Positions 13,149-39,096 of a stretch of DNA of 43,364 bases are shown piece after piece. The DNA is taken from assembly GCA_048937405.1 (NCBI GenBank), contig JBHLNF010000021.1:1-43364 (forward strand), read 5' to 3'. The notes beneath the pieces are model-generated. The model had not been told where the DNA came from and ran no database searches. It saw only the letters and a list, made by a program, of their open reading frames with translations. The translations under genes and the position numbers were made by a program. This DNA comes from Promethearchaeota archaeon (GTDB lineage: Archaea; Asgardarchaeota; Lokiarchaeia; Sigyniarchaeales; SOKP01). Each line of letters begins with the position of its first letter. Positions within the stretch are counted from its first letter, which is position 1.

Positions 13149-13177
13149 AACATAAAATGAAAATAATAAATTAAAAA

Positions 13178-22430: not shown

Positions 22431-22507
22431 TCAGTTCCCTGAATTCGTCCGTTGAATACTCACCTCACCCATTGTCGCAAATCTTCAAGGAGATATCGGG
22501 GAACTGA
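22431..22507 (+). ncRNA. Candidate hairpin ncRNA and integration target
   Basis: TCAGTTCCCTGA pairs with TCGGGGAACTGA (12 bp, one G-U on the + strand); inner TCC/GGA and TTGAA/TTCAA stems; 27-nt loop; T-tracts follow. Confidence 0.55.
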
Positions 22508-22646
22508 CCTTTTTCCTTTTTCATATAAAGGAGAGAAATAGAGAAGTGAAAATAGGAAATAAAAAATTTAGGATCGTTATCAAGCTTATTTAACAAATGA
22601 TTGACCGAGATCTTTAATATTTATAGATTTAGACCTTCCATTTTTT
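22455..22646. repeat. Repeat A copy 1 (55-bp att-like core plus ~137-bp element left end)
   Basis: Direct repeat of 34090-34282; the core recurs at 39042-39096. Confidence 0.93.
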
Positions 22647-22649
22647 TCC

Positions 22650-22674
22650 AATGATCTCCTGTAAGGAGATCATT
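22650..22674. terminator. Perfect 11-bp hairpin downstream of the TIR gene
   Basis: AATGATCTCCT-GTA-AGGAGATCATT. Confidence 0.45.
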
Positions 22675-22754
22675 AACATCTGAATTGGTGAATAGCAATT
22701 ATATAAAATATAGCATGATAAAATCCCTTCAAATATGCTTTTTCCTTAATTTCT

Positions 22755-25700
22755 TCAATAATCTTTTTGGTATTGTGTTGAGCCCACTTGTTTTAAAAGA
22801 ACTTTATATATTTCCTCAACATTATGAGTCAAATTATCTTGAATAAATTGCACACCAAGATAAGGTTTTATCAGGGAAGGAACATTATCATAATCTAAGA
22901 AAATAGGGATTATGAGTTTGCTTTCTGCTAAAGCTGCCTGCCATTCCATTTCAATGTACTTTGATTGTAAGGCATTTTGGGAGCAGAAAGAGATGAATAC
23001 GTCACTTCTTCGTATATTATCGTTCATGTATTTAATAATATTTTCATAATCAACTCCTTCATAAAAGAATACAGTTTCAATTTCTTGATATTTTTCCAAC
23101 TCTTTCGCTATTTTAGCTACATGAAATATATTTGAGTCTCTACGAGAATAACTCACGAAGATACGGAATCCTTGCGTTATATCCGTTGTCTTTATCTTTA
23201 ATTTTTTAGCAAAAAGTTTAGCTACTCTTGGAAACTCATCTATGACTTGATGATCCACCAAAAATTTTCCTATTTTCTTTGCAGTAATTAAATCTAATCC
23301 TGAATTTATGACCAAGTTCGATAAGGTAAGATTTGCTTCTGTCTTTATCAACTTTTCAGAAATTGCTTCTAATTTCGAAATTTCTGATTCCTCATAGTCA
23401 ATTTCTTCATTGAGTAAATTGAAGTAATTATTCGTTTTTCTAAATTTTATATCGAATAACTTGATCAATTCTTTTTTTGTTATTTCTCTCTTGTTTTCAT
23501 GTTCAAATTCTAAAATTTTTCTTAAAATTTCTTGGATTTTTAATTCTTTACAAAGATCTTTTTTATCCAACGCTTGACTTACAATATCATTAAAAGCATA
23601 CAATTTTGCTTCTTGGATAATAGCTTTAATTTCTTCTTTTGCTACTGTGTAATTCTCCTTGTTAATCTCCTCTTCTACGGTTACCAATTTCGCAGTAAGA
23701 GTATTTCGGATATCATTCTCTCTATTTTCAATTTGATTTAATAACTGATTTGCTCCATTAATTTGGTTATTGAATTGATAATTTTGAGCTATTATTAAAA
23801 TTTTTTTCAGTTCCTCCTTAGCGTCTATGAATTTGCCCAAATTTATCATGTCCCTTATCTTATCTAAGAAATTATTCATTTGCTTTCTTTTAATATTATT
23901 TTGTATTTCTTTTTCACATAGATTTATCTTTTCTTTAATAATGTTTATTATGTTATCAAACTGATAGGACTTAGCAGTTCCAAGTATTTCATATAACTCA
24001 TTTCTAGCATTTTGGAAATCTTTATTCTGCATTCTCAGATTAATCTGCATTAACTTTTCTTGAATTTCTATTTTTCTTGTGACCCCCTCATGGAGCTTAT
24101 CAAATCTTTTTCTTAAAATAAGACTTTTTTCTTTTATATGACATAAATTTATCATTTCTTTTACATCATTTACTATCTTAATAAAGTGATATGGTTGAGC
24201 AGTCTCCTGCAATTCTGCCAACTCTTTTTTAACATTTTGAAAATCATTTTTCTGTATTTTTATTTTAACCTGTCTCAATTTTTCTTGAAACTCTGATTCT
24301 TTTATCTTTAAATCGTTTTTACATCTATCAAATTTTTTTAAAGCATCCTCCAATATATTAGTAAAGTTGTGTTTTTTAGAAATTTGAATTACTACTTGGA
24401 TTTCTGTCATTGCAGCTAAATATTCATTGGTGTGGATTAAATCCTCTACCGCTTCCAATCTTTTAATTGTATTTTCTTTCTTCAAATTAATATCTCGAAA
24501 TAACTTACGTAGTCTCCATATCTCTTCCTCTATCTTTTTTAATTTAGATATTCGAGATTTTTGCTCTATTTTTATCAATTTTTCGAGGATGTCTAAGGAT
24601 ATATTATTTTGGATTTCTTGTTCAAGCTCTGCTATTTGGGACTCGAGATGGATTTCTTCAGAACGCATCAACTCCTCTTTATACTCTTTAGATATATTAT
24701 TAGCAACATTAAGAATATCTGAAAATAGTCGATAATCAAATTTTTCGAGTGTATTAGAGATCATATGGAATTCTTGCCAAATTCCTTTATATCTCTTTCT
24801 TTCTAACGATTCTCTTATTTTAATCAATCTTTTAATAAACCAAATCTTAATTGATCTGATTTTTTTAAATTTTTTAATAGAATTTTTAAGGGACTTTATT
24901 CCGTTATCAAACTTGATGAAACGGGCAAGTTCTATTATTTTTTGATAGAGAACTATTTCATTTACATGGAAAAAGTCCTGACCTAACAATATTTCAATTT
25001 CCTTTTGATTAGAAATACTATTTTCATTAGCTGGAAAGGAAGAATCTTCTGCTTCAGAGATCACATAGTCCCACTCGTCATTGATCTCTGATAAGATTTC
25101 TTTTTCTTGTTGATTTAACCATTCAGAGAGCTCCTTAAAAGCTTTGTTATATTCATTTTCTAATATATAAAAGCCAATTTCAATAGCTTCCTCAATTTCC
25201 GAAAAATTTATCTCACATTCTTCAAAAATCTCATATAATTTTGGGCTCATATCAAAACCATTTTTGTAGAGAAAATCAGGAACACCAAATCTTGCAGATG
25301 GATATGCAGGATCTGAAAACTCAAAAAAATCACAAAATTCTTCTATATACAAGGAGATTGTTTTTTTTTCCCGTAATAATTTACGAATATTTCGATCATA
25401 TTCTTTAGGATTGAAAGCTAATATGTTATCGAAATAATTAAGCAAAATTTTAAATTTTTCATAACGCTCTTCTTCTAAATCAATTATAGCATCTTCTACC
25501 AATTCTGCTATATGATGAACGTTAAGATTTCTAGAAAGATCTTTTAAAAATATACGTAATAATGAGAAACTTTCTTCATAGTGGATCAATTTTTTTTCTA
25601 ATTCTGACCACGTTTTCAATCTTTCGTTACCCTCATTAACAATATCATTAACATCAAGTCTCTCCGCCTCAGCAATTGCATCCTTAATCTTATTTATTTT

Positions 25701-25787
25701 ATCGCTGTTGTTTTCACCATATTGAAGTTTTGTATAGATTACTTTCCGTAATTCTCCTTTCTTTTGGTCTAAAGACTTTTGATTCAT
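22755..25787 (-). CDS. Large helical-repeat protein with C-terminal TIR domain
   Basis: RIFVSYSRRD...FISFCSQNALQSKYIEMEWQAAL...IIPIF, with the Glu at the catalytic position; repeated helical units upstream. Confidence 0.85.
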   Translation of the reverse strand: MNQKSLDQKKGELRKVIYTKLQYGENNSDKINKIKDAIAEAERLDVNDIVNEGNERLKTWSELEKKLIHYEESFSLLRIFLKDLSRNLNVHHIAELVEDAIIDLEEERYEKFKILLNYFDNILAFNPKEYDRNIRKLLREKKTISLYIEEFCDFFEFSDPAYPSARFGVPDFLYKNGFDMSPKLYEIFEECEINFSEIEEAIEIGFYILENEYNKAFKELSEWLNQQEKEILSEINDEWDYVISEAEDSSFPANENSISNQKEIEILLGQDFFHVNEIVLYQKIIELARFIKFDNGIKSLKNSIKKFKKIRSIKIWFIKRLIKIRESLERKRYKGIWQEFHMISNTLEKFDYRLFSDILNVANNISKEYKEELMRSEEIHLESQIAELEQEIQNNISLDILEKLIKIEQKSRISKLKKIEEEIWRLRKLFRDINLKKENTIKRLEAVEDLIHTNEYLAAMTEIQVVIQISKKHNFTNILEDALKKFDRCKNDLKIKESEFQEKLRQVKIKIQKNDFQNVKKELAELQETAQPYHFIKIVNDVKEMINLCHIKEKSLILRKRFDKLHEGVTRKIEIQEKLMQINLRMQNKDFQNARNELYEILGTAKSYQFDNIINIIKEKINLCEKEIQNNIKRKQMNNFLDKIRDMINLGKFIDAKEELKKILIIAQNYQFNNQINGANQLLNQIENRENDIRNTLTAKLVTVEEEINKENYTVAKEEIKAIIQEAKLYAFNDIVSQALDKKDLCKELKIQEILRKILEFEHENKREITKKELIKLFDIKFRKTNNYFNLLNEEIDYEESEISKLEAISEKLIKTEANLTLSNLVINSGLDLITAKKIGKFLVDHQVIDEFPRVAKLFAKKLKIKTTDITQGFRIFVSYSRRDSNIFHVAKIAKELEKYQEIETVFFYEGVDYENIIKYMNDNIRRSDVFISFCSQNALQSKYIEMEWQAALAESKLIIPIFLDYDNVPSLIKPYLGVQFIQDNLTHNVEEIYKVLLKQVGSTQYQKDY

Positions 25788-26407: not shown

Positions 26408-29400
26408 TTATGGAACGAAGGGGATTACAATCATCGATCTATAATATAACCTGAACCATTCATTATCTGAGGGATTCCAGTTATACTCTACTTTAAGCTC
26501 TTTTCCATATAGATCTAGTATTTCAATATGAACTTTTGTTTTCCAAAAGTAAGCTCCATAACCTCCAGGAAAATTAAAATTTCTTTTAGTAAAAACTATT
26601 TCACTATTTCCATCATTAAATGCAGTCCAACCCCAACCTTGAGCTTGATCATCGACGAGGTATGGTTGAGAATATTCATCAGGATCTTGAAGACCATAGG
26701 TTGCAGTATAAATTACGAAATTTTTGTGGTTATTATTCTCAAATACAATATCTTCATTTAAATCTTCAGTTGTACTCGATCTATTTTCATATTTATAATC
26801 GTATTTTAGAGGTATTAGGATCATCGATCTCTCCATTATTGTAATCTTTTCATCATCCCGTTGATCTAAATACAATTTTACAGATAAATCTTCATTATTC
26901 AATGAAAGCATATCTGCTATTACAATTGTACCTCTCATTTCGTTCTGGAAAAGACCAGCTGGAAATTCCCATCTACGTCTTGTATTATTATAATCTTGGC
27001 TATTACTAGCGAAAAATGCCCAACCATTACAATGAACTCCTAATAAATCTGTGGTATCATCATTAACCTTAAATGAAGAAGTATAAATAGCGAAATATTC
27101 ACCAGTAAGACCTTCAATATGAATATCTTGATCTGGATATGAATCATCTTCATAAGCCCAAGAACGATAATTCATACTGTTGATATATTTATAATCATTC
27201 TCAAAAGGTATCGCACAAATTGACCTTTCATATATATACAAATCTTCAGCCCATTCAGGACTAAAACTAATTTCCGCTTTGACACCCCCTGAACCAAGCG
27301 TTAGAACATCTATGACAATCATAGTTCCATAAATGAAATTATCTGGCCCTAATCCAGAATTTAAGCAATCATGTAAACGTTTTGTTTTTTGGATTACTCC
27401 TTGATCAGTTATTAACTTCACCCACCCATATCCCTCATAGTTTTCAACTGGTTCTACTTTATATGATGCGGTGTACAAAACCAAATAATCCCCAGGATTT
27501 GCAACTGAAGTAATCGCAGCGTGTTCGTCAACCCAACTACCAGAAGATAAAATAACATGACTTTCTGTACTTTGAGCATATAAAAATCCTTTAGCATAAT
27601 TAGGGGTATTATAATATACACGTTTTGAATAATAATATGCCCCAGTTGTATGTTTCCCTATTAACTGAATTGAGTGGGCTCCAGATTCACATGGAATTAC
27701 TTTATCTCCATAAATGGTCACAATAGGCTCATTATCATAGGAATATCCCATCCACTCATACCCAGAATTATCAACTTCAAGCAATATTCCTTCATAGCGA
27801 TTATCTCCCATAGCATAATTCGGATCCCAAGAATACCCAACAGCATCAATGTGATGACTATAATCCTCATCACCATATCCAACATCGCCAAGAGTTGAAA
27901 ATAAAAGGCGATCTGGACCCGTAGATGATCCTGTTCTGTAATCATATGGACCATATGGAATACCATTAATATATACATAGTATTCATTGCTGGAATCATG
28001 ACATTCGATTTTTATATGATACCATGTTGCTCTTGATAAATCATTTTTAATAGCCTTCCAATCACCATCACAATATTCTAATTTCCCATTGGTTTGCCAG
28101 AATCGTAATTCTACAAGGGTGGTGGATCCTTCTAATAATTTAAACCTTAATTGATCTTGATGTGACATTGAGTATGTACTCCACCAAAATTCAACCTGAG
28201 CATCAGGTTTTGCGCCTCCATCAAAGTAATTACATAAATAAACGCGAGCTTGGTCAGCAGGATTATTATCTTTTATTTCAAGCACTTTATGATGATTTTC
28301 ATATGATTGAGAAATTTTTGCTGAACAACCTGAACTTGCACCATATTCATTAATAAAATTAATAGCATACCCCTCATCGTTAGGATTCTCATCTTCAAAG
28401 CTATATGTTCCCAGATAATAACCATCATCGGGTTCCTGAAATTCTTCTCCACCAAAGGGTTCTTCGATAATTCTCGTTTGAAAATTAACGACCCCATCCT
28501 CATATCCAGATGCGGAGACTGTAATTGTATGTTGTCCATTTTCAGGTATTGGTATTACAGTATCTCCAAAGATGCTGGCCCAATTTCCACCATCGACTTT
28601 ATAACTTGCTTCTATATTATTTGGTGTAATATCAAGCAACAATCCTTCATGTCGATTATCTCCAATATTATAATTTGAATCCCAAGAATATCCAACCGCA
28701 TCTAAATAATGAATATAATCAGAATCGCCATATCCATTATTCCCGAGAGATGAAAAATAAAGTCGATCTGGACCAATATTTGACTCTCCATTATTTCTAT
28801 AATTATATGGTCCGTACTCTATTCCGTCTATATTGACTTTATATTGATTATTAGTATCATCACATACAATTTTAATATGATACCATGTATCAGAGGTTAA
28901 CCCACTTTTTATCTTTCGCCACGTAGTATCACAATAATCTATTTGCCCAGCAGTTTGCCAGAATCGTAATTCTACAAGGGTGGTGGATCCTTCTAATAAT
29001 TTAAACCTTAATTGGTCCTGGTTTGAAGATGAAGAAGTGCCCCACCAAAATTCTACAGCAGCATTAGCTTTATAACCGTCAAAATAGTTAAACATAGAGA
29101 CACAAGCTTGATAAGCAGGATTATTATCCTTTATTTCAAGCACTTTTTTGTGACTTCTCCATGATGAGATAATTTTTGCATGACAATTTGAACTAGCAGA
29201 GTATCCCTCTATAAAACGAATATCATACCCCTCATTGTTAGGATTCTCATCTTCGAATCCATATTTTGCAGGATAATATCCTCTATTGGAATACGCTAAA
29301 TCCCAAGAATAACCTAACAGATCTAGGTAAACTTTATAGTTTTTCTGTGCTGAACCACTTGAAAAGGTTACTGTATTCAAATAAGTTTTAGACCTTTCTT

Positions 29401-30757
29401 GAAAGAAAGCAAAATTTTGTTGATACTCATTTCCATCAATAATAGCTTTCCATCTATTTTCTTCTAATCCTTCAAAATCACTCGCACCAGAGCATCGGAA
29501 ATGGACTCGTACATGATGCCATTCATCATCAACGGGATTAGGAATGTTAGGTATTACCTTTTCAGTATACCCATCTTGGCAATACCACTTACCACCACTT
29601 ATGAAAACTTTTATCATGGTTGCCCCTCCTGTTCTTATATTATTTAAAACATATTGAGAACTATCTGAAATTTTTATCCAATATTCTATAGTTCCATATT
29701 TTTGAGCACTAAAAGTATCTTCAACCAACCAATAATCGGAACCAGAATTATCTACTAATTCAAGTACGTTATCAAAAACTTCGCTATCATATGTTGTTTT
29801 TGTATATGTATTGTAAGTAAAATCAAAATTCAATCCCTCTTCTAATAACGGTTCAATGTCATAAGGATTAATGTTATTTCCAACTCTGTATCCTAGACCA
29901 CCATGACTAGAAGTATCCCATGAAAATCCTACGGCATCAATAAAATGGACATATCCCCCATAACCTGTGTTCCCGAGAGTTGAAAAATAAAGTCGATCTG
30001 GACCAATATTTGACGCACCATTATTTCTATACTTATAAGACCCATACTCTTGTCCATTTATATAGACTTTGTATTGATTATTAGTATCATCACATACGAT
30101 TTTAAGATGATACCATGTATTAGAGGATAACCCACTTTTTAGAGTTCGCCACGTAGTATCACAATACTCTATTTTCCCAGCAGTTTCCCAAAATCGTAAT
30201 TCTACAAGCGTGGTGGATCCTTCTAATAATTTAAACCTTAATTGGTCCTGGTTTGAAGATGAAGAAGTACCCCACCAAAATTCTACTGCAGCATTAGCTT
30301 TATAACCGTCAAAATAGTTATACAGGTAAACACGACACTGATAATCCTCATTATCGTCTTTTATTTCAAGTACTTTATTATGACTTTTCCATGATGAGAC
30401 AATTCTCGCATGACAACTTGAACTAGCAGAATATCCCTCTATAAACTTAATATTTTTTCCTATATCACCTACAGTTTCATCTCGAAAATCGTAAGTTCCA
30501 TAGTATACCTTCGATTTTGTTGCACAGTCATCAAAATCGTAAGTAGAAGGATAATATCTGTCCATAGATGATGTGTAAGTTTTACCTTCCACTGGAGAAT
30601 TAATTGTTATTTCAGGATCGCTGAGTTTAGGTAATTGTGTTCCTGCTGATTCTAGGTTGGATATCAAAAGTGGAAGTCCTCCCGTAAATGTAATAATTAG
30701 TAGAATTACAGCTAATAATATCTTGTTTTTTTCATTCTTTAATGTCATTTTTATCAT
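26408..30757 (-). CDS. Large secreted/surface protein with repeated beta-sandwich (lectin/LamG-like) modules
   Basis: N-terminal signal peptide; four ~170-200-aa repeats ending D..G(Y/F)SWD, three of them near-identical; three shorter C-terminal YT.(S/T)(Y/F)...GW repeats. Confidence 0.75.
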   Translation of the reverse strand: MIKMTLKNEKNKILLAVILLIITFTGGLPLLISNLESAGTQLPKLSDPEITINSPVEGKTYTSSMDRYYPSTYDFDDCATKSKVYYGTYDFRDETVGDIGKNIKFIEGYSASSSCHARIVSSWKSHNKVLEIKDDNEDYQCRVYLYNYFDGYKANAAVEFWWGTSSSSNQDQLRFKLLEGSTTLVELRFWETAGKIEYCDTTWRTLKSGLSSNTWYHLKIVCDDTNNQYKVYINGQEYGSYKYRNNGASNIGPDRLYFSTLGNTGYGGYVHFIDAVGFSWDTSSHGGLGYRVGNNINPYDIEPLLEEGLNFDFTYNTYTKTTYDSEVFDNVLELVDNSGSDYWLVEDTFSAQKYGTIEYWIKISDSSQYVLNNIRTGGATMIKVFISGGKWYCQDGYTEKVIPNIPNPVDDEWHHVRVHFRCSGASDFEGLEENRWKAIIDGNEYQQNFAFFQERSKTYLNTVTFSSGSAQKNYKVYLDLLGYSWDLAYSNRGYYPAKYGFEDENPNNEGYDIRFIEGYSASSNCHAKIISSWRSHKKVLEIKDNNPAYQACVSMFNYFDGYKANAAVEFWWGTSSSSNQDQLRFKLLEGSTTLVELRFWQTAGQIDYCDTTWRKIKSGLTSDTWYHIKIVCDDTNNQYKVNIDGIEYGPYNYRNNGESNIGPDRLYFSSLGNNGYGDSDYIHYLDAVGYSWDSNYNIGDNRHEGLLLDITPNNIEASYKVDGGNWASIFGDTVIPIPENGQHTITVSASGYEDGVVNFQTRIIEEPFGGEEFQEPDDGYYLGTYSFEDENPNDEGYAINFINEYGASSGCSAKISQSYENHHKVLEIKDNNPADQARVYLCNYFDGGAKPDAQVEFWWSTYSMSHQDQLRFKLLEGSTTLVELRFWQTNGKLEYCDGDWKAIKNDLSRATWYHIKIECHDSSNEYYVYINGIPYGPYDYRTGSSTGPDRLLFSTLGDVGYGDEDYSHHIDAVGYSWDPNYAMGDNRYEGILLEVDNSGYEWMGYSYDNEPIVTIYGDKVIPCESGAHSIQLIGKHTTGAYYYSKRVYYNTPNYAKGFLYAQSTESHVILSSGSWVDEHAAITSVANPGDYLVLYTASYKVEPVENYEGYGWVKLITDQGVIQKTKRLHDCLNSGLGPDNFIYGTMIVIDVLTLGSGGVKAEISFSPEWAEDLYIYERSICAIPFENDYKYINSMNYRSWAYEDDSYPDQDIHIEGLTGEYFAIYTSSFKVNDDTTDLLGVHCNGWAFFASNSQDYNNTRRRWEFPAGLFQNEMRGTIVIADMLSLNNEDLSVKLYLDQRDDEKITIMERSMILIPLKYDYKYENRSSTTEDLNEDIVFENNNHKNFVIYTATYGLQDPDEYSQPYLVDDQAQGWGWTAFNDGNSEIVFTKRNFNFPGGYGAYFWKTKVHIEILDLYGKELKVEYNWNPSDNEWFRLYYRSMIVIPFVP

Positions 30758-30968: not shown

Positions 30969-31158
30969 GTAATATGATCAATCCATATAAAAAGGTGACT
31001 CTCAAGGGGATACCTGATTTTATTTGAAGGAAAGGGGACTCCTACCAGCAGGACCTCAATACAAGGTTAAAACTGTAATAGAGGGAAGAGGGCGAAATCA
31101 GAGTTTACAAAGGTACACAACCCAAAGACAAAAATCCGGGGTGCGTGATAGGAGTCAT
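30969..31158. repeat. Repeat B copy 1 (~190-bp core, weaker similarity ~30909-31192)
   Basis: Homologous to 33742-33929; contains an internal 11-bp inverted repeat. Confidence 0.9.
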
Positions 31159-31347
31159 GTTGGTATAAAGTATTATTTTTCACCCATATAATTCAAAAAA
31201 ACTATGATTTTTAATATGTTGTGTCCCAGAGTATATAAAGAAAAAAAATAGGGTAGATACAAAATCCAGTGATGATGAATCAAATTGAATATGAATAACA
31301 ATACTAATTAAAAAGAAAATTTTTAAAAGAAGTGTTCAAAACATAAT

Positions 31348-33636
31348 ATGATTATTTACAGCAAAAAATTAATCGATGCGAGACTCCAAATGAAACTTAC
31401 AAATCTTACTATAAACGATATATTTACCGATAACGAGAAATTGACCTTTCTGGTAGGGGCAGGATGTTCTGTTGATCCACCATCAAATCTCCCCGCGGGA
31501 CGAAAGATGATAGAAGCCATTATTAACTATACCTGTGCTGACTCAGAAAAACAGAAAATTTTAGAATTAGATAAACTTAGGTTTGAGCAGTTAGTAGAAA
31601 TTGTTCGAGATGTTTTAGATCCTGAGCTTAAAATAATTGATTACTATGGTCAATGCGATACTCCCAACCTCCAACATTTCTTTCTGGCAAATATGATTAA
31701 AAAAGGACATTTTGTTATAACTACTAACTTTGATTTTTTAATTGAGTATGCTCTGCTTCAATCCAACGTCCCGAAAGATGATATTATTCCTGTTATAACA
31801 AAAAAAGATTTTGAGGAATTTGATAACCCAATTAAGCTATATGAAAAAGGGAAAAAAACATTATATAAAATTCATGGCTCTACTGAAAATATAATTAGGG
31901 ACGAGGAAACAAGAGATTCTCTTATTGCCACAATTCAAGCGTTCGGTTCAGGCAAGGAAGGAGAAAGCGTATTCCAAGTAGAACCGTTCAAGCGATCTTT
32001 ATTTGACAATATTTCGAATAATTGTACTCTGGTGGTTATGGGATATTCGGGAAGTGATGATTTTGACGTAGTTCCTACATTAATGGTATTAAAAAATCTG
32101 AAAAACATTGTCTGGATTAATTATGTATTTGACGATGGTGGTTTAGAAAAGATTTACGAGATTGATGGTTCTACAGTTCAAGAAATCAAAAAGTTAGATA
32201 AAGTTACTCAAATACTTGTCGATATCTATCGAATAAATAATACAGATCATGTGTATCGAGTGGATGTTAATACGACAAGAATGATTGAAGAATTATTTGA
32301 TCCTAAGCATAAACTAGGTTCTGATAGCTTTTCTATAAACCCTATAACTTGGCTTAAAAATAATATTAATTTACCAAACAAATTTGAAGAATATATTATT
32401 CCCTATGAAATGTACTATTATTTTGATATGTACCAAGATGCGATGAAATGTTTAGAAAAAATTTTGTTTTTATCAAATAAAAAAAAAAAACTCGATTGGA
32501 AAACAACAGCGCTTAACAACATCGGCGAAATTTATAGAGTACAGGGGAATTATCCAGAGGCGTTAAAACGATATGAAGAGGCGTTGAAAATTGCCGAACA
32601 ATCGGGAGATCTTTCTGGAAAAGCTAAATGTCTTAACAACATTGGCGAAATTTATAGAGTACAGGGGAATTATCCAAAGGCGCTAAAACGATATGAAGAG
32701 GCGTTGAAAATTGCCGAACAACTGGGAGATCTTTCTGTAAAAGCTACATTTCTTAACAACATTGCTAGTATTCATTATATTCAGGGGAATTATCCAGAGG
32801 TGTTAAAACGATATGAAGAGGCGCTGAGAATTGCCGAACAATTGGGAGATCTTTCTGGAAAAGCTACATGTCTTAACAAATTCGGAATGATTTACAAAGC
32901 ACAAGGGAATTATCCAGAGGCATTAAAGCGATATGAAGAGGCACTGAGAATTGCCGAACAATTGGGAGATCTTTCTGGAAAAGCTATACACCTTAATAAC
33001 ATCGCTAATATTTATCATACACAGGGAAATTATCCAGAAGCGTTAAAACGATATGAAGAGGTCATGGGAATTGCCGAACAATTGGGAGATCTTTCTGGAA
33101 AAGCTACAATTCTTAACAACATCGGAGAAATATATAGAGCACAGGGGAATTATCCAGAGGCGCTAAAACGATATGAAGAGGCGCTGAGAATTGCCGAACA
33201 ATTGGGAAATCTTTCTATAAAAGCTACATGTCTTAACAACATCGGACTGATTTACGAAGCACAGGGGAATTATCCAGAGGCGCTAAAACGATATGAAGAG
33301 GCGCTGAGAATTGCCGAACAACTGGGAGATCTTTCTGTAAAAGCTACATTTCTTAACAACATTGCTAGTATTCACTATGCTCAGGGGAATTATCCAGAGG
33401 CGCTAAAACGATATGAAGAGGCGCTGAGAATTGCCGAACAACTGGGAGATCTTTCTATAAAAGCTACATTTCTTAACAACATTGCTAGTATTCACTATGC
33501 TCAGGGGAATTATCCAGAGGCGTTAAAACGATATGAAGAGGTGCTAGAAATTCTAGATAAACTTGGATTAAGCGAATCCCCGAATGCTAAAACCTTTAAA
33601 AAGAATATTGAGATTGTTAAAAGTAGAATAAAATAA
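31348..33636 (+). CDS. SIR2-like domain plus TPR array protein
   Basis: FLVGAGCS, ITTNFD, KIHGS, MGYSGSDDFD; nine 40-aa TPR units. Confidence 0.9.
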   Translation: MIIYSKKLIDARLQMKLTNLTINDIFTDNEKLTFLVGAGCSVDPPSNLPAGRKMIEAIINYTCADSEKQKILELDKLRFEQLVEIVRDVLDPELKIIDYYGQCDTPNLQHFFLANMIKKGHFVITTNFDFLIEYALLQSNVPKDDIIPVITKKDFEEFDNPIKLYEKGKKTLYKIHGSTENIIRDEETRDSLIATIQAFGSGKEGESVFQVEPFKRSLFDNISNNCTLVVMGYSGSDDFDVVPTLMVLKNLKNIVWINYVFDDGGLEKIYEIDGSTVQEIKKLDKVTQILVDIYRINNTDHVYRVDVNTTRMIEELFDPKHKLGSDSFSINPITWLKNNINLPNKFEEYIIPYEMYYYFDMYQDAMKCLEKILFLSNKKKKLDWKTTALNNIGEIYRVQGNYPEALKRYEEALKIAEQSGDLSGKAKCLNNIGEIYRVQGNYPKALKRYEEALKIAEQLGDLSVKATFLNNIASIHYIQGNYPEVLKRYEEALRIAEQLGDLSGKATCLNKFGMIYKAQGNYPEALKRYEEALRIAEQLGDLSGKAIHLNNIANIYHTQGNYPEALKRYEEVMGIAEQLGDLSGKATILNNIGEIYRAQGNYPEALKRYEEALRIAEQLGNLSIKATCLNNIGLIYEAQGNYPEALKRYEEALRIAEQLGDLSVKATFLNNIASIHYAQGNYPEALKRYEEALRIAEQLGDLSIKATFLNNIASIHYAQGNYPEALKRYEEVLEILDKLGLSESPNAKTFKKNIEIVKSRIK
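32512..33549 (+). repeat. Nine tandem 120-bp coding repeats (TPR)
   Basis: CTTAA(C/T)AA recurs every 120 bp from 32512 to 33472; the GGGAATTATCCAGAGGCG...CGATATGAAGAG block is near-invariant. Confidence 0.95.
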
Positions 33637-33741
33637 ATTGATTTTTTTTACCTTTTAAAATCATTTATTTCATCCTCTTTCTATTTTAAATTGAATTTCT
33701 AATACTTATATCTTTGTTTTTAGCAAATAAAGGTAATTTAA

Positions 33742-33929
33742 GTAATATGAAGAATCCATATAAAAAGGTGACTCTCAAGGGGATAGCTGATTTGATATGA
33801 TAAGAAGGCGACTCTTACCAGCAGAACCAATACAAGGTCCAAAAATTAATAGAGGGAAGAGGGCGAAATTAGGGTGTACAAATGTAAACAACCAAAAGAC
33901 AAAAATCCAGAGTGTGTGATAGGAGTCAT
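33742..33929. repeat. Repeat B copy 2
   Basis: Shares AATCCATATAAAAAGGTGACTCTCAAGGGGATA, TAATAGAGGGAAGAGGGCGAAAT, AAAGACAAAAATCC and GTGATAGGAGTCAT with copy 1. Confidence 0.9.
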
Positions 33930-34068
33930 TTTTAATAGAGTTAATAAAAATTTCACCTACAAATCACAATTTCTTCTTTTTAACAACATGAGTAATTATT
34001 AATGATAAGAAACCAATGAATATCAATAAAAAACTTATATTATAGCTACTAATCGAAGTCAAATTTTG

Positions 34069-34282
34069 AATTGCTTGAAACAACCCCTCAATACTCACCT
34101 CACCCATTGTCGTAAATTTTCAAGGAGATATCGGGGAACTGACCTTTTTCTTTTTTCACATAAAGGAGAGAAATAGAAAAGTGAAAATAGGAACTAAAAA
34201 ATTTAAGTTCGTTATCAAGCTTATTTAACGAATGATTGACCGAGATCTGTAATTTTTATAGATTTAGACCTTCCATTTTTTT
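34069..34282. repeat. Repeat A copy 2 (21-bp right-end motif, core, left end)
   Basis: AATTGCTTGAAACAACCCCTC, then the core at 34090-34144, then the flank shared with copy 1. Confidence 0.93.
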
Positions 34283-34488
34283 CTCTTTTGATTAAGTTGG
34301 TTTTTTCTAAAGCTGATAAATGTTCAGAAACGGTGCTTTTTTTGAAATTATTAAGGTATAAAAAAATTAATGAAATACTAATAGAATGTAATAATCTAAA
34401 TAATCAAAATTTTTAATATAAAGATTTTAAAAATTCTTTGAGTCAGTAATTTTATATATACTATGTTAATATAAATACATTAGAAATA

Positions 34489-35502
34489 ATGGCTAATAAT
34501 TCAAAAAAAGATATTATTAATCGTAAAAAGAAGCTATTTGTAAAAAATGAAAAAGTTCTCCTTGATCCAGAAGCAAAAAGTTTGGCAGACTTCGAATGGT
34601 CGCCAAATCTTAAACTACTTGCATATTCTGGTCCATATATAAATAAAATCGAGAATCTTAACACTTTAATAAATTTGGAACATTTAAGACTAATTGGAGG
34701 AAGAATCTCAAAAATAGAGAATCTTGAGAATCTTCAAAGTTTGAAGTTTTTGGATCTAAGTGCAAATAATATCTCTGAAATTGAAGGATTAGAAAATCTC
34801 AAGAATTTAGAAGTTTTACGATTTGGAAATACATTTGAATTAACTGGTGGAAATCCGATAAAAGAAATTAAAGGCTTGGAAAATTTAAAAATTTTGAAAG
34901 AATTAAGATTTATTCAAAACGAAATAATCGCTATAAGCGGTCTGGAAAAGCTAAAAAGGTTAGAGATTTTAGATCTTAGATCTAATTCAATTACTGAAAT
35001 AGAAGGTCTCGTCAGTTTAACTAATTTAAAAGAGCTTTATCTTGGTGGAAATAAAATTATAGAAATTAGAAGGCTTAACGATCTTAAAAAACTGGAAATC
35101 TTAGAATTAGGAGGCAATAAAATAACAAGAATAAATGGTCTTGATAATTTAAGTAATCTGAAGGAATTACACTTGGATTTTAATGACATCACAGAAATAA
35201 CAAACCTTAATTCACTCGAGAAATTAGAAAGATTATATTTATTTAATAATAATATAAAAGAGATACAAGGTTTAGAAAATCTGAAGAATCTAATAGAATT
35301 GGATTTGAGTCAAAATAAAATACAGGAGATAAAAGGTTTAGAGAACCTAAAGAATCTAACAGATTTAAATTTAAGCTATAATAAGATTTTAGAAATTAAA
35401 GGAATTGAGAATCTAGTGAATTTAAAGCGATTAGGACTTCATGATAATCCCATTAAGAAGTTCTCAGGAATAGAATCACCAAAAGATTTGATAATCTATT
35501 GA
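34489..35502 (+). CDS. Leucine-rich repeat protein (SDS22-like, 22-aa units)
   Basis: Repeated L..L.L..N.I.EI.GLE.L. Confidence 0.93.
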   Translation: MANNSKKDIINRKKKLFVKNEKVLLDPEAKSLADFEWSPNLKLLAYSGPYINKIENLNTLINLEHLRLIGGRISKIENLENLQSLKFLDLSANNISEIEGLENLKNLEVLRFGNTFELTGGNPIKEIKGLENLKILKELRFIQNEIIAISGLEKLKRLEILDLRSNSITEIEGLVSLTNLKELYLGGNKIIEIRRLNDLKKLEILELGGNKITRINGLDNLSNLKELHLDFNDITEITNLNSLEKLERLYLFNNNIKEIQGLENLKNLIELDLSQNKIQEIKGLENLKNLTDLNLSYNKILEIKGIENLVNLKRLGLHDNPIKKFSGIESPKDLIIY

Positions 35503-35799: not shown

Positions 35800-36219
35800 T
35801 CATAAAAAATGAGTTATTTTCATATTGGTTTCAATATCTTCTATATATCGAAAAGACTGTGGAGGATAGAATTCAGGAAATATTGATTTTGGATCTATTG
35901 GTTCCTTAAAAAACTTCAAATCTGAAATTTTAATGGCAAGTCCCTTCTCTTTTTTATCGAAATATTTAAAAAATTCTGATTCCTCAATCCCAGATAAATC
36001 TTTACATTTTTCCCATAAAATTTTAGGATGATCTTCTATTACTATATTAAAAACAAAACTAGCTACAATCTTTTTCACGGGTGAGCTTGAATATATGAAA
36101 ATTTTATTGATCTTTTCAAAATATTTTTTATTACCAAGTGTTTTTCGAAATTCATATTTTTTTTTTCCCCTTTTTATCTCATCTACATATTTTGGCTTAA
36201 CTGAAAGTAAAACGTTCAT
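35800..36219 (-). CDS. ASCH-domain protein
   Basis: LLSVKPKYVDEIKRGKKKYEFRK, IYSSSPVKKIV, PPQSFRY. Confidence 0.9.
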   Translation of the reverse strand: MNVLLSVKPKYVDEIKRGKKKYEFRKTLGNKKYFEKINKIFIYSSSPVKKIVASFVFNIVIEDHPKILWEKCKDLSGIEESEFFKYFDKKEKGLAIKISDLKFFKEPIDPKSIFPEFYPPQSFRYIEDIETNMKITHFL

Positions 36220-37717
36220 TAATTCTTCCCACTTCCTTTATAATTAAATACTTTTTGTGATCAATCTCAGTGATTGATTGAGGTGGACCTTTTAAGAGAT
36301 TTTTATTCAATAATGTATCATACGATACTGGATTTCTAAGATAAAAATGATGGTTAAAGAGAATTATGGTTGTTGGTTTTTTAACAAACTTTTCAATTTC
36401 AGAGAGAGAATATACAGTACGCTTCCCTACTAAATTAAAGACTTGTTCTTTCTCCAAAAGGTCATACTGAACCTTTTCGACAACACCTACTGATACAATT
36501 TCCTTCATGTCTTCAGATCTATAGAAAAGAATCACATCTCCAGGATCAATTTTCTTAGTTGAGGAATGAGTGATATAAGCTTTTCTAATCGTGTTTCCTT
36601 CAATAACAAATTCATTTATTGATTCATTTATAGTGAGTTGTCCCCTTCTGGGAAAATCTGTAAATAACCGGTTATGATATTTAGGCTGGATTGGAATGAT
36701 ATGTTTCTTGACATTTACTCCGTCATAAAAATTTGGAAAATATTGCTTAGAAACTTGGATAGGTTCTATTAATTGGACTTCCTCATTAGAAATTAATATT
36801 TTTTTTACAAATACATCTTCAGGTATTTCAGACCATTCTTGTTCTATTATAGCCTCTCTAGTAAAACCAAAATCTTCAATAAGAGCTACTAAAGAATCAT
36901 TTTCTTTACTAAAGTGAGTTAAATAAATTTCCAGAATTTGGTTTTTAATTGCGAGATTTATAGATAATTTAAGGAATAACTCTCCTATTTTTTGACCTGT
37001 GTAAGATACAATCATGGTTGTAATTTTTAAACGTTTCTTTTTAGGTAATATTGGTTTGGCAGCGATTTCTTGTTTTTCAAATTTATATATTAAAACCGCT
37101 CCAAGTTTTTCACCATTTTTATAATAAACCCAACAATTTCGACCTTCCCTTGCTTTTTTAATGAACCATTCATTGAATCCTGGATATTCATCTTTTAAAG
37201 TATCAAAAATAGGATCATCTAAATTAAGATTAGACATTGATGTTGCTTTTAATGCATAAGGTAGTTTGATTTTTTCTTTAGGGATTTCTTTTTCAAAAAG
37301 ATTTATAGCATCTAAAATAGAAAGTATTCTGTCAGAAATATCCAAGTTTTTCGCTTTTTTATGAATTCCAATATCTTCAGTAATCAAAAAATTAACAGCA
37401 TTACGATAAACAGCATATAGTAAACAATTATCAATTATATCATTAGGTTTTTTTATCTCTCCAACTAAGTCTAGAAATTCGGTATCCTTAGAAGGTTTTG
37501 GAAATTCTTCTAAGAGATTGTAAGTTTTAAATTTTGAAAGAGTAATTTGTTTTCTCTCTTCATTCTTGTCCCTTTCAATATCCTCAATAGATTTTTTATG
37601 TAAAATTATGCTAATATCTAATTGATTAAGAATCTTCATTAATATTTGCAGATCTTCGTCTATAATTTTGTTGTCTTCTCTTCCAATGATAATGTTTGTA
37701 TCTAGTAAAATTCTCAT
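36197..37717 (-). CDS. PIN-GNAT-EVE/PUA fusion protein
   Basis: ILLDTNIII...D...FLITED (PIN); FDTLKDEYPGFNEWF and LKITTMIV...GQKIGELF (GNAT); GNTIRKAY...GDVILFYRS...PPQSI (EVE/PUA). Confidence 0.85.
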   Translation of the reverse strand: MRILLDTNIIIGREDNKIIDEDLQILMKILNQLDISIILHKKSIEDIERDKNEERKQITLSKFKTYNLLEEFPKPSKDTEFLDLVGEIKKPNDIIDNCLLYAVYRNAVNFLITEDIGIHKKAKNLDISDRILSILDAINLFEKEIPKEKIKLPYALKATSMSNLNLDDPIFDTLKDEYPGFNEWFIKKAREGRNCWVYYKNGEKLGAVLIYKFEKQEIAAKPILPKKKRLKITTMIVSYTGQKIGELFLKLSINLAIKNQILEIYLTHFSKENDSLVALIEDFGFTREAIIEQEWSEIPEDVFVKKILISNEEVQLIEPIQVSKQYFPNFYDGVNVKKHIIPIQPKYHNRLFTDFPRRGQLTINESINEFVIEGNTIRKAYITHSSTKKIDPGDVILFYRSEDMKEIVSVGVVEKVQYDLLEKEQVFNLVGKRTVYSLSEIEKFVKKPTTIILFNHHFYLRNPVSYDTLLNKNLLKGPPQSITEIDHKKYLIIKEVGRINERFTFS

Positions 37718-37946
37718 CCAAATACCATTTTTAATTTAGGATTTTTCCTTTAAAATCAATTACTGAGCTTTTTTTATTTTATGTATTAATATGCGATATA
37801 AAATTATTTAAAGATTAAGAATCTGTAATTGAATTATAAGATTTTTTAAGCCTAGATGATTTCAAAAGGTGACAAAAATAAATAATCTGCATTGTATTTG
37901 TTTACTTTTTTTTCATTTTCTTTAATTTAGGAGAGAAAATTTAAAG

Positions 37947-38066
37947 TTGCAGGTCAATACGTTTTATCAAAAAATGAAACAATCACTACAAGAAAGGGAT
38001 TGCCAGAAAGTAGCTGCCGGTTTAAAAGCTCTCGAAAAATATGTCATTCCACTACCACAACACTAA
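37947..38066 (+). CDS. Possible small ORF or gene remnant (30-39 aa)
   Basis: TTG at 37947 or ATG at 37974, TAA at 38066; AGGAGA upstream and a T-tract downstream. Confidence 0.25.
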   Translation: MQVNTFYQKMKQSLQERDCQKVAAGLKALEKYVIPLPQH

Positions 38067-38188
38067 AAAAAAGTCTTTTTTTTATTTACTTTTTTTAATT
38101 TTCTTATTATCTTTATTTTTTTTGAAATTCTCAAAGTCAACACCGCCCAAAAATATAAATAGCAGTCTTACGTAAAAATACCATAGAT

Positions 38189-39010
38189 ATGATTGACGAT
38201 AATTCAAAGGAATATGTTATATATCAAGGAAACAAAATTTTTGTGGAGAACGATAAATTATGCCTTCCATGTAACTTGAAAAGCCTTAATGAAATCGAAG
38301 GTCTTCAAGAACTTAAAAATTTGACGTACCTTGAATGTTATGCATATTCATTAAAAAAAATTGAGAACCTTGATGGTCTCATAAATTTAGAATACTTGAT
38401 TATCAACAAAAGTGATTATATCGAAAAAATTGAAAATCTCGAGACCCTTTCTAATTTGAAGGGTTTGGATCTCTCTGAAAATCGTATCTCTAAGATTTCA
38501 GGTTTAGATAATCTTAAAAAGTTAGAAAGTTTGAGAATATGTCGTAATCTTCTCACAGAAATTAACGGACTTGACGAACTATCAAATCTTAAAGAACTTT
38601 TATTAAGACAAAATGAAATATCTGAGATTAAAGGATTAAAGAACCTCAGTAATTTGGAAGTTTTAAGCTTATCTGAGAATAGAATTACAGAAATCAAAGA
38701 ACTGGAGAATTTGACCAGCCTGAGAAAATTAAATCTTAATGAAAATAAAATTACTGAAATTAAAGGTTTGGATAATCTGAAAAAGCTAAATAAATTACAC
38801 CTTGCAGCTAACAAAATCTCTGATGTTAAAGGAATTGAACCCCTTAAAAGTTTAGAACGCATAGATCTACAAATTAATGGTTTAGATCACTTACAAGGGC
38901 TTGAAACCTTACCTAACTTGAAGACTGTAGTCCTCAGAGAAAATGAAGTTAGCATCGAATCGTGCGAGATCCTCGATATCCTCAGAGAAAAAGGTGTTCA
39001 AATAATATAA
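38189..39010 (+). CDS. Leucine-rich repeat protein (SDS22-like)
   Basis: Repeated L.L.EN.I.EIKGL.NL. Confidence 0.93.
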   Translation: MIDDNSKEYVIYQGNKIFVENDKLCLPCNLKSLNEIEGLQELKNLTYLECYAYSLKKIENLDGLINLEYLIINKSDYIEKIENLETLSNLKGLDLSENRISKISGLDNLKKLESLRICRNLLTEINGLDELSNLKELLLRQNEISEIKGLKNLSNLEVLSLSENRITEIKELENLTSLRKLNLNENKITEIKGLDNLKKLNKLHLAANKISDVKGIEPLKSLERIDLQINGLDHLQGLETLPNLKTVVLRENEVSIESCEILDILREKGVQII

Positions 39011-39020
39011 TTTTATTAAT

Positions 39021-39096
39021 AATTGCCTGAAGCTGCCCCTCAATACTCACCTCACCCATTGTCGTAAATTTTCAAGGAGATATCGGGAAACTGACC
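39021..39096. repeat. Repeat A copy 3 (right-end motif and core only)
   Basis: AATTGCCTGAAGCTGCCCCTC, then the core at 39042-39096; downstream flank is unique. Confidence 0.93.

What the first reader, a model, noticed from the sequence alone, without database searches (positions are those of the whole stretch)
22455..39096. Two integrase-less cargo elements stacked in tandem at a non-tRNA hairpin target
Seen: a 55-bp core (AATACTCACCTCACCC...AACTGACC) at 22455, 34090 and 39042. Only copy 1 has the 5' arm that completes the hairpin. Copies 1 and 2 share ~137 bp more downstream (left end). Copies 2 and 3 share a 21-bp upstream motif AATTGCYTGAARCWRCCCCTC (right end). Copy 3 has a unique downstream flank and a stem-breaking G-to-A change. 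This is the pattern expected from two successive site-specific integrations that each restore the target 3' half, with the crossover near the stem-loop boundary. The units (11,635 and 4,952 bp) have unrelated cargo and no recognisable recombinase. Inference: a family of non-autonomous, trans-mobilised cassettes forming an integron-like accretion hotspot, with the newest unit proximal. I know of no description of this target or these ends.
Basis: partly seen in the sequence, partly recalled or inferred. Interest (0 to 1): 0.88.

Follow-up and report, generated by a model that had tools for sequence, protein, structure and literature searches.

The report
Recombinase-free gene blocks behind RNA hairpin
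In this Asgard (Lokiarchaeia-type) archaeon two blocks of immune-like genes sit one after the other behind a conserved RNA hairpin, each bounded by a spare copy of that hairpin's tail; relatives carry other blocks or none at the same spot, but the same repeat-bounded, recombinase-free insertions occur at other gene ends in this genome, so this is one case of a general insertion mode, not a hairpin-specific integron.

Summary
A 55-bp core occurs at 22455, 34090 and 39042 and nowhere else in the genome. Only copy 1 is a full hairpin. Copies 1 and 2 share 139 bp downstream, and copies 2 and 3 share 21 bp upstream.

The refutation tests were passed. Three empty sites (88-aa gene, hairpin, 85-aa gene) exist in relatives. 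More than 25 loci carry different cargo between hairpin copies. The hairpin stays at one locus in 25 of 54 genus genomes. About 68 cargo ORFs contain no recombinase.

The integron-like, hairpin-specific reading is not supported:
- The window holds three more repeat-bounded, recombinase-free insertions at unrelated targets (upstream of lpdA, the lpdA 3' end, around SIR2-TPR).
- Repeat lengths vary from 45 to about 230 bp. The right edge is fixed at the transcript end and the left edge varies.
- The 137-bp "left end" is partly the tail of a winged-helix gene.
- There is no IntI, no attC signature and no dif-like site.

The scan had already noted the same pattern elsewhere in this genome (23S rRNA tail, rps8, leuS, ahcY).

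Best reading (0.55): Campbell-type insertion with long target duplication at the end of a transcription unit, using host recombination, followed by stacking and exchange through the repeats. The enzyme is unknown.

The parts
22081..22091 (+). Shine-Dalgarno region of the 88-aa gene (TGAGGTGAGTA), complementary to the hairpin loop
   Evidence: It is invariant upstream of the 88-aa gene in all loci. The one exception is G033, where a T>C change is matched by A>G in the loop. The 11-mer is rare in the genome: three target-sense sites.
22098..22364 (+). 88-aa gene (g88), a lineage-specific orphan that always lies just upstream of the hairpin
   Evidence: It has 84 homologues, all from Loki-type Asgard sequences, with no Pfam family. 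It is syntenic with the hairpin in all loci.
22431..22520 (+). Copy 1: full, conserved 78-nt hairpin plus T-run. This is probably the g88 3'UTR or an sRNA terminator, and it is the target.
   Evidence: Fold. In the 24-sequence alignment 89.6% of cells are paired, with U-A to U-G changes that fit plus-strand RNA. Model R1 finds it in 25 of 54 genus genomes, at one locus each.
22455..22509 (+). 55-bp core, copy 1
   Evidence: (D5, D6).
22510..22648 (+). Segment shared with copy 2. It consists of an intergenic stretch plus the last 20 codons of a truncated winged-helix gene (minus strand, 22586-22648).
   Evidence: D5 (94%), (tblastx against G070) and sequence reading.
22755..25787 (-). Unit 1 cargo: 1010-aa protein with a C-terminal TIR domain
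   Evidence: Pfam TIR_2, 1.8e-15.
26408..30757 (-). Unit 1 cargo: 1449-aa ConA-like lectin (Laminin_G_3) repeat protein. An 89-aa ORF lies at 25974-26243.
   Evidence: Internal repeats are (D2, D4).
30918..31161 (+). Left copy of a nested direct repeat of about 245 nt that brackets the SIR2-TPR gene
   Evidence: D9 and D10 (82-86% against 33691-33932).
31348..33636 (+). Unit 1 cargo: SIR2-TPR protein (762 aa)
   Evidence: Pfam SIR2_2 plus TPR. PADLOC gives TPR and weak SIR2 matches.
33691..33932 (+). Right copy of the nested direct repeat around SIR2-TPR
   Evidence: D9 and D10.
34069..34144 (+). Copy 2: 21-bp upstream motif plus the 55-bp core ('short form', without the 5' arm of the stem)
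   Evidence: Short-form copies with a related upstream motif (..AGCCCCTYAAT|ACTCACC) occur in at least 5 other lineages.
34145..34283 (+). Segment shared with copy 1. Here it continues into a longer open stretch of the winged-helix gene (minus strand, to about 34400; no start codon found).
34489..35502 (+). Unit 2 cargo: LRR protein (337 aa)
   Evidence: Pfam LRR_4, 4e-55. LRR paralogues recur in the arrays of G003, G036, G062 and G064.
35800..37717 (-). Unit 2 cargo: two-gene candidate defence system PDC-M11 (B at 35800-36219, A at 36197-37717)
   Evidence: PADLOC PDC-M11A 3.6e-150 and PDC-M11B 3.2e-46.
38189..39010 (+). Unit 2 cargo: second LRR protein (273 aa)
39021..39096 (+). Copy 3: 21-bp upstream motif plus core (G>A in the 3' arm), followed by the native right flank
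   Evidence: The right flank is homologous to the flank of the empty sites.
39181..39438 (-). 85-aa Cys-rich gene (g85), the conserved right border, followed by hdr/frhB-like genes
11217..17652 (+). Neighbouring insertion of the same architecture. A 6.1-kb block (longin, OsmC, second SIR2-TPR) is bracketed by a 148-nt direct repeat (72%) of the region upstream of lpdA (11217-11360 and 17510-17652).
   Evidence: The block lies inside the hairpin array in G001. It is absent between AsnC and lpdA in L102, L104 and L106.
18995..21720 (+). Neighbouring insertion of the same architecture. The lpdA 3' end is duplicated (18995-19205 and 21510-21720, 78%) around a 630-aa HNH/wHTH gene and a 104-aa ORF.
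   Evidence: There are 48 nt differences, split 10/6/32 by codon position, with 12 aa changes and no stops.

Best explanation
The target is the 3' end of a small transcription unit: the 88-aa gene, a conserved 78-nt hairpin whose loop is antisense to that gene's own Shine-Dalgarno sequence, and a T-run.

DNA blocks of 1-12 kb have entered here by Campbell-type events. The result is an 'insertion with long target duplication'. The incoming DNA carries, or the event creates, a copy of the target's tail. After insertion an intact hairpin still follows the 88-aa gene, and a spare, partial copy is left at the far end of the block, where it decays.

The repeats then serve as joints. Recombination between them loops blocks out, giving empty sites and circles. 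Circles or unequal exchanges add blocks, giving tandem stacks such as the two units here. Recombination in the conserved flanks moves whole arrays between species.

The blocks encode no recombinase. The same architecture is found at unrelated targets in this window and genome, so I infer that a general host recombination route does the work, not a hairpin-specific enzyme. Selection keeps only insertions that leave the transcription unit intact, which would explain why the right edge of every repeat lies at the transcript end.

Shown: the anatomy, the empty sites, the cargo turnover, the lack of recombinases and the recurrence at other targets. Inferred: circular intermediates, the host enzymes involved and the order of events.
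For: (1) Repeats and fold are confirmed.

(2) Empty sites with g88, one hairpin and g85 occur in G033/L042, L081 and L092. On a flank-gene tree they fall in three separate subclades, each with filled sisters.

(3) More than 25 loci carry different cargo between hairpin copies. All-against-all clustering shows mostly singletons. Among about 68 cargo ORFs scanned, none has a recombinase domain. Precomputed Pfam annotations of further loci agree.

(4) The right edge of the repeat always lies at the T-run (positions 71-102, apart from the two pairs in which the segment after the hairpin is duplicated too). The left edge ranges from -141, inside the g88 3' end, to +46. This is what restoring a transcription-unit end predicts.

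(5) First copies are canonical. Last copies often have degenerate loops.

(6) The same architecture occurs at three other targets in the window. The two lpdA 3' copies differ mostly at third codon positions (10/6/32, no stops). One copy therefore came in as a functional allele from a diverged lineage and is not an in-place duplicate that decayed.

(7) The 6-kb block lies upstream of lpdA here but inside the hairpin array in G001.

(8) G030 has a clade-2-type g88-array segment (94% to G064) in a clade-1 backbone. The last copy in G064 is a chimera of two lineage types, joined in the loop motif.

(9) The repeat of unit 1 is 194 bp at 94% identity, long enough for homologous recombination.

(10) Insertion with long (>30 bp), variable target duplication and no mobility genes, often spanning gene starts or stops, is described for bacterial defence (RM) genes (PMC2853133).
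Against: No circle, excision junction or clean empty-site joint was seen in the source metagenomes, where only contigs were available.

Several independent arrays share an abrupt left repeat edge at the stem-loop boundary (positions 24-28) and a related upstream motif of about 30 nt. A site-specific crossover would explain this directly. My reading needs common descent of a 'short-form' copy instead.

Some repeats are only 72-80% identical. That is poor substrate for homologous recombination in a genome that encodes MutS and MutL, unless the divergence came later.

How the first duplication arises is not explained.
Confidence: 0.55

Rival explanations
1. The hairpin is a dedicated recombination site, attB- or attC-like. 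A recombinase encoded elsewhere (host XerA or an unrecognised enzyme) inserts and excises non-autonomous cassettes at the stem-loop boundary. This would resemble an integron, a Xer-exploiting element (IMEX) or a cis-mobilisable element.
For: The left repeat edge recurs at positions 24-28 in arrays of at least 5 lineages with unrelated cargo, and these arrays share the upstream motif (C)AGCCCCTYAAT. The hairpin sequence is almost invariant. Copies are confined to one locus. In G003 each co-oriented gene is followed by a full hairpin, as in a cassette array. XerA is present.
Against: The same repeat-bounded, recombinase-free architecture occurs at three unrelated sequences in this window and, according to earlier notes, at many gene ends in this genome.

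Repeat extents vary from 45 to about 230 bp.

No IntI was found: TIGR02249 scores 96 bits against a cut-off of 265. The arms read GTTCCCT...GGGGAAC, not RYYYAAC...GTTRRRY (read). The core has no 11-N(5-8)-11 palindrome. The genome has no Y1 transposase.

The only other tyrosine recombinase is sporadic in the genus (5 of 54 genomes) and unlinked to hairpin presence.

The short-form 5' part looks like the canonical 5' arm (CAGTTCCCT) with a deletion of about 13 nt. This would make the short form a diverged paralogue and not a foreign arm.

The hairpin pattern gave no hit in the viral contigs.
Confidence: 0.2
2. There was no horizontal import through the hairpin. The hairpin region was duplicated in place by unequal crossing-over or replication slippage at a fragile inverted repeat, and the genes between the copies were later replaced by unrelated processes.
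For: In G003 two adjacent units are paralogous LRR genes with 507 nt of shared hairpin plus promoter (79%), which is a plain tandem duplication. Copy 2 is the hybrid expected from unequal exchange between copies 3 and 1.
Against: Units 1 and 2 share nothing except their ends. Cargo differs between close relatives, for example the window and G036 with g88 98% identical. The lpdA repeat shows that an allele came in from a diverged lineage. The array segment of G030 is of foreign clade type.
Confidence: 0.1
3. These are ordinary integrative elements (proviruses, plasmids) that once carried their own integrase and have since lost it through decay.
For: Direct repeats that restore a target's 3' end are the classic scar of integrase-mediated insertion. 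One sporadic integrase exists elsewhere in the genome.
Against: No integrase, not even a fragment, was found in about 68 cargo ORFs from more than 25 loci and roughly 45 units. No viral or plasmid hallmark genes are present. Units can be as small as 1.2 kb with a single gene.
Confidence: 0.07
4. It is an assembly artefact: the repeat collapsed or mis-joined unrelated contigs of a metagenome-assembled genome.
For: Logan contigs break exactly inside the core repeats at 22486, 34121 and 39065. Unit order therefore rests on the original assembly.
Against: Both units occur at even depth in runs from two studies. Analogous multi-copy arrays appear in many independently assembled genomes and metagenome contigs, including 160-kb and 294-kb contigs.
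Confidence: 0.02

Closest known systems
Insertion with long target duplication (Nobusato et al. 2000; Furuta, Abe and Kobayashi 2010, PMC2853133)
   Same: Defence-type genes are inserted without any mobility gene and are bounded by long (>30 bp), variable direct repeats. The repeats correspond to single-copy sequence at an empty site in a relative, and often span a gene end so that the target stays intact. A life cycle through repeat-mediated amplification and release has been proposed.
   Different: It was described for restriction-modification genes of bacteria. Here the host is an Asgard archaeon and the cargo is TIR, SIR2-TPR, LRR and PDC-M11 genes. Blocks are stacked in arrays of up to 5-6 copies. 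The target is an RNA hairpin and terminator. At the neighbouring lpdA site the two repeat copies are diverged alleles and not a fresh duplication.
Genomic islands and cis-mobilisable elements (CIMEs) accreted in tandem at the 3' end of a gene or tRNA by site-specific recombination (own knowledge: ICESt1/ICESt3 and CIME at fda in Streptococcus thermophilus)
   Same: Tandem, non-autonomous units are separated by att-like direct repeats that restore the target's 3' end.
   Different: No autonomous, integrase-bearing partner was seen at this site in any of more than 25 loci. Repeat length is not fixed. The same scars occur at many unrelated targets.
Integrons and clusters of attC sites lacking an integrase (CALINs), including archaeal integrons (own knowledge: Cury et al. 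2016; Ghaly et al. 2022)
   Same: An array of cargo is separated by structured (hairpin) repeats at one chromosomal locus, and cargo turns over quickly.
   Different: There is no IntI, and the R''/R' box signature is absent. Many copies lack one arm of the hairpin. Units hold several genes on both strands. Repeats extend into the upstream gene.
Xer-exploiting integrative elements (IMEX, e.g. CTX/TLC at dif; own knowledge)
   Same: Recombinase-free elements are stacked in tandem at one chromosomal site, and a host XerA is present.
   Different: No dif-like 28-bp palindrome lies in the shared core. The site is present in only about half of the genus, so it is not the chromosome dimer resolution site.

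Membership tests
Insertion with long target duplication (criteria of Furuta et al. 2010) | Direct repeats longer than 30 bp and of variable length flank the insert | tested here: met
   Repeats are 67-194 bp in the window and 45 to about 230 bp across loci.
Insertion with long target duplication (criteria of Furuta et al. 2010) | The repeat corresponds to single-copy sequence at an empty site in a related genome | tested here: met
   G033/L042, L081 and L092 have g88, one hairpin and g85.
Insertion with long target duplication (criteria of Furuta et al. 2010) | Insert under 20 kb with no transposase, integrase or phage genes | tested here: met
   The units are 11.6 and 5.0 kb. No recombinase domain was found. 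The same holds in relatives.
Insertion with long target duplication (criteria of Furuta et al. 2010) | Cargo is a restriction-modification system | tested here: not met
   Cargo is TIR, SIR2-TPR, LRR, PDC-M11 and lectin-like genes. No R or M genes were found.
Integron / CALIN | Integron integrase (IntI) next to the array or in the genome | tested here: not met
   The genome has only two tyrosine recombinases. One is XerA (NF040815, 238.9 bits against a cut-off of 220), and TIGR02249 scores 96 against a cut-off of 265. The other is sporadic in the genus.
Integron / CALIN | attC signature: imperfect hairpin with R'' RYYYAAC and R' GTTRRRY boxes at every cassette boundary | tested here: not met
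   The arms read CAGTTCCCTGA...TCGGGGAACTG. Copies 2 and 3 do not fold. No attC model was available to run.
Integron / CALIN | Cassettes are mostly single, promoterless, co-oriented ORFs | tested here: not met
   Each window unit holds four genes on both strands. The feature is met only in some relatives, such as G003.
Integrase-mediated integrative element / CIME accretion | A cognate integrase in the element, or in an autonomous relative at the same att site | tested here: not met
   None was found in about 68 cargo ORFs from more than 25 loci. The hairpin pattern gave no hit in viral contigs.
Integrase-mediated integrative element / CIME accretion | Fixed att core with crossover at one position | tested here: inconclusive
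   Left edges cluster at positions 24-28 in several lineages but otherwise range from -141 to +46. Two inferred crossovers lie at different places.
IMEX (Xer-exploiting element) | dif-like site: two arms of about 11 bp in inverted orientation around a 6-8-bp spacer, within the repeat | tested here: not met
   No 11-N(5-8)-11 match with at least 8 of 11 positions lies inside the shared core in copies 1-3 or in the empty site. The real archaeal dif of this genome is unknown.
IS200/IS605-type hairpin-guided transposition | Y1 HUH transposase in the element or genome | tested here: not met
   PF01797 has no match in the 100%-complete genome.

The most novel reading that the evidence does not exclude
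The hairpin is a structure-specific recombination site, functionally like attC. A host enzyme such as XerA, or an unrecognised Asgard recombinase, cuts it at the stem-loop boundary. This would make the locus an integrase-unlinked archaeal counterpart of an integron that collects eukaryote-like immune domains (TIR, SIR2, LRR, Ank, Ras).
Probability: 0.12. Interest if true: 0.85.

Novelty: new variant of a known kind. Interest (0 to 1): 0.5.

Why it matters
[quoted passage not shown] This locus shows, with empty sites and more than 25 alternative fillings, that blocks of immune-type genes (TIR, SIR2-TPR, LRR, Ank-TIR, a Piwi-like gene, PDC-M11) enter and leave a Lokiarchaeia-type genome without any element-encoded recombinase. 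They leave long duplicated target ends, which later act as joints for stacking and exchange.

Together with the other repeat-bounded insertions in this window and genome, it points to a general, little-described route of gene gain in these organisms. The route is known so far mainly from bacterial restriction-modification genes.

It also marks a new conserved RNA hairpin whose loop pairs with the ribosome-binding site of the gene it follows.

Tried and rejected
- tRNA and tmRNA scan of the window: none found.
- Rfam at gathering score and at E<=10 around the hairpin: only chance-level snoRNA and miRNA matches.
- Hairpin pattern in IMG/VR viral contigs: no match.
- Laying Logan contigs of four runs on 21000-40000. 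Contigs break inside the core. The only candidate long joint (22508 to 39422, side 26 nt, letters between the sides not known) does not correspond to an empty site and is too short to trust. No circle or excision junction was seen. Raw reads were not available.
- Search for the 137-bp left end in the genus. The only hit outside the locus is a winged-helix gene homologue in G070 without a hairpin, so this segment is not a dedicated element end.
- A weak match of that segment at 17552-17587 lies in the conserved lpdA promoter region, and I treated it as chance.
- The 392-aa integrase on contig C28: sporadic in the genus and unrelated to hairpin presence.
- Serine recombinase: only one broken fragment in the genome. 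Y1 transposase: none.
- dif-like palindromes in the core: none.
- GAGGTGAG ribosome-binding sites in cargo genes that the loop might also target: none.
- Literature searches for Asgard integration sites or hotspots found no description of this hairpin or locus.

Full report
WHAT IS THERE

The window is a whole 43-kb contig of a 4.47-Mb, 29% GC genome. Ras/Roc GTPase and longin genes, hdr/frhB genes and the record titles of relatives place it among Lokiarchaeia-type Asgard archaea ('Promethearchaeota' MAGs).

An 88-nt family has copies at 22434, 34069 and 39021, with a 55-bp core at 22455, 34090 and 39042. Copies 1 and 2 share 194 nt at 94%. Copies 2 and 3 share 21 nt upstream (sequences).

Only copy 1 is a complete hairpin. 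It spans 22431-22508 and folds at -26.8 kcal/mol with z -3.8. Copies 2 and 3 have z +1.5. The core occurs nowhere else in the genome. It is neither a tRNA nor an Rfam family.

WHAT THE TARGET IS

The hairpin lies 66 nt after an 88-aa orphan gene (g88) and is followed by a T-run. g88 plus hairpin is conserved in 25 of 54 genomes of the genus, always at a single locus.

In 24 full copies 89.6% of cells are paired. The variation is mostly U-A to U-G, which fits an RNA on the plus strand.

The loop motif TACTCACCTCA is the reverse complement of the g88 Shine-Dalgarno region.
- The SD region is invariant in all loci except G033.
- In G033 a T>C change in the SD region is matched by A>G in the loop.
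- The 11-mer is rare in the genome.
- No cargo gene carries it.

The target is therefore the functional 3' end of a small transcription unit.

Empty sites exist. G033 (L042) and two metagenome contigs (L081, L092) have g88, one hairpin and the 85-aa gene.

Alternative cargo is the rule. More than 25 loci carry one to five units of 0.35-11.6 kb between hairpin copies, and the contents are almost entirely different.

The hairpin copies are not dispersed.

Among about 68 cargo ORFs there is no recombinase. Cargo includes:
- TIR (three times, plus one weak match) and SIR2-TPR;
- LRR (at least seven times) and Ank-TIR;
- DprA/SLOG with a PRTase, a PIN-like protein and a weak Piwi match;
- Ras/Roc, DUF401, GNAT and various enzymes.

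In the window, unit 2 also holds the candidate defence pair PDC-M11A/B.

On a quick flank-gene tree the three empty sites fall in three subclades that each have filled sisters.

Logan contigs from two studies hold both units but break inside the core. They neither confirm nor contradict the unit order, and they show no excision product.

ANATOMY ACROSS LOCI

I aligned every extra copy to the first copy of its own genome.
- The right edge of the repeat always falls at the T-run (positions 71-102 from the stem start). The exceptions are two pairs in which the segment after the hairpin is duplicated too (to 218 in the window, to 423 in G003).
- The left edge varies from -141 (29 codons into g88; G061, G008) through 1-6 (full hairpin) to 18-46.
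- There is a cluster at 24-28, where the loop begins.

First copies are canonical. Last copies often have degenerate loops.

The copies with the 24-28 edge share a related upstream motif..AATTnnT..TTGAnA..(C)AGCCCCTYAAT. This looks like the canonical 5' arm CAGTTCCCT with about 13 nt deleted, and their variable loop region matches the lineage type of the canonical copy in the same genome.

The last copy in G064 is a chimera. It has a G003-type spacer and 5' arm and a G005-type core, joined in the loop motif. In the window, copy 2 is copy-3-like at two 5' SNPs and copy-1-like from GGGG onward, which puts a different crossover place in play.

The '137-bp left end' is an intergenic stretch plus the last 20 codons of a minus-strand winged-helix gene. 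That gene is cut short in unit 1, and a homologue stands in G070 without a hairpin.

WHY I DO NOT READ IT AS A HAIRPIN-SPECIFIC SYSTEM

The same scar, a recombinase-free insert bracketed by a long and diverged direct repeat of the local target, occurs three more times in this window at unrelated sequences.

(a) A 148-nt repeat (72%) of the lpdA upstream region brackets a 6.1-kb block.
- The block is absent in L102, L104 and L106.
- In G001 it lies inside the hairpin array.

(b) A 211-nt repeat (78%) of the lpdA 3' end brackets an HNH/wHTH gene.
- Its 48 differences fall 10/6/32 by codon position, with no stops.
- Both copies therefore evolved as coding sequence, and one is an allele brought in from a diverged lineage.

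(c) A repeat of about 245 nt brackets the SIR2-TPR gene inside unit 1 (D9 and D10).

Earlier notes of this scan list the same pattern at other gene ends of this genome: the 23S rRNA tail with stacked cassettes, rps8, leuS, ahcY and a ubiquitin-like gene. I did not re-test those.

The genome has XerA, one sporadic integrase unrelated to hairpin presence, one broken serine recombinase and no Y1 transposase. There is no IntI and no attC-type boxes. No dif-like palindrome lies in the core.

MECHANISM I COMMIT TO (0.55)

These are Campbell-type events of the kind described as 'insertion with long target duplication' (PMC2853133). They occur at the end of a transcription unit, and selection keeps insertions that leave g88, the hairpin and the terminator intact. 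The duplicated tails then act as joints for loss, stacking and exchange. Recombination in the conserved flanks moves whole arrays between species. G030 has a clade-2-type array in a clade-1 backbone.

Unit 1 is bounded by 194 bp at 94% identity, which is enough for homologous recombination.

Shown: the anatomy, the empty sites, the turnover, the lack of recombinases and the recurrence at other targets. Inferred: circular intermediates, the host enzymes involved and the order of events.

The main rival (0.2) is a site- or structure-specific enzyme acting at the stem-loop boundary. The recurrent 24-28 edge and the shared upstream motif speak for it. The generality of the scar and the variable repeat lengths speak against it.

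COMPARISON AND NOVELTY

The closest known kind is insertion with long target duplication of bacterial restriction-modification genes. The features that differ are:
- the archaeal (Asgard) host;
- the stacking into arrays;
- the RNA-hairpin target;
- the eukaryote-like immune cargo;
- the evidence, at lpdA, that the spare copy is an allele from another lineage.

I found no description of this hairpin or locus in Rfam or in the papers searched. Within this scan the pattern had already been found on other DNA of the same genome, so this finding adds a well-documented case but not a new category.

Noticed in passing
window 22081-22091 and 22457-22467; L042 (G033): The hairpin loop is an 11-nt antisense of the g88 ribosome-binding site. 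In G033 the pair changes on both sides (SD T>C, loop A>G), and a second loop change gives a G-U pair. This may be a fold-back control of g88 translation, or an sRNA.
   Followed up: partly
window 11217-17652; L035 4159-10485 (G001): A 6-kb block (coiled-coil protein, longin, two small ORFs, OsmC fusion, SIR2-TPR) is bracketed by a 148-nt repeat upstream of lpdA here. In G001 it lies inside the hairpin array. The same cargo block thus occupies two different hotspots in two species.
   Followed up: partly
window 18995-19205 and 21510-21720: The two copies of the lpdA 3' end differ mostly at third codon positions (10/6/32) with no stops. One of them is therefore an allele from a diverged lineage. 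Relatives have two or three such fragments (G036, G003, L090).
   Followed up: partly
window 35800-37717: A gene pair matches the PADLOC candidate defence system PDC-M11 very strongly (A 3.6e-150, B 3.2e-46). It is flanked on both sides by LRR genes.
   Followed up: no
L040 (G030) against L062 (G064): G030 groups with the window's clade on flank genes. However, its segment from g88 through the hairpin to the Ank-TIR gene is 94% identical to that of clade-2 genome G064. This indicates transfer of the whole array between clades.
   Followed up: partly
L036 19089-19186 (G003); L090; L041, L044, L048: An inverted hairpin copy lies next to lpdA 3' fragments in G003 and L090. In G017, G007 and G028 the lpdA-to-MutS segment lies downstream of the hairpin in inverted orientation. 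Inversions may therefore end at hairpin copies.
   Followed up: no
L062 13734-15149 (G064 array): A 471-aa cargo protein has a weak Piwi-domain match (1.6e-4). Uncharacterised genes of 435 aa and 233 aa lie beside it. This may be a short Argonaute-type defence module.
   Followed up: no
L073 (DATKTW010000087.1): A contig carrying g88 at 86% identity is filed under 'Candidatus Nanopelagicaceae bacterium'. This is probably a mis-binned Asgard contig.
   Followed up: no
window 32380-33639: The SIR2-TPR gene holds nine tandem 120-bp TPR units at 64-90% identity.
   Followed up: no
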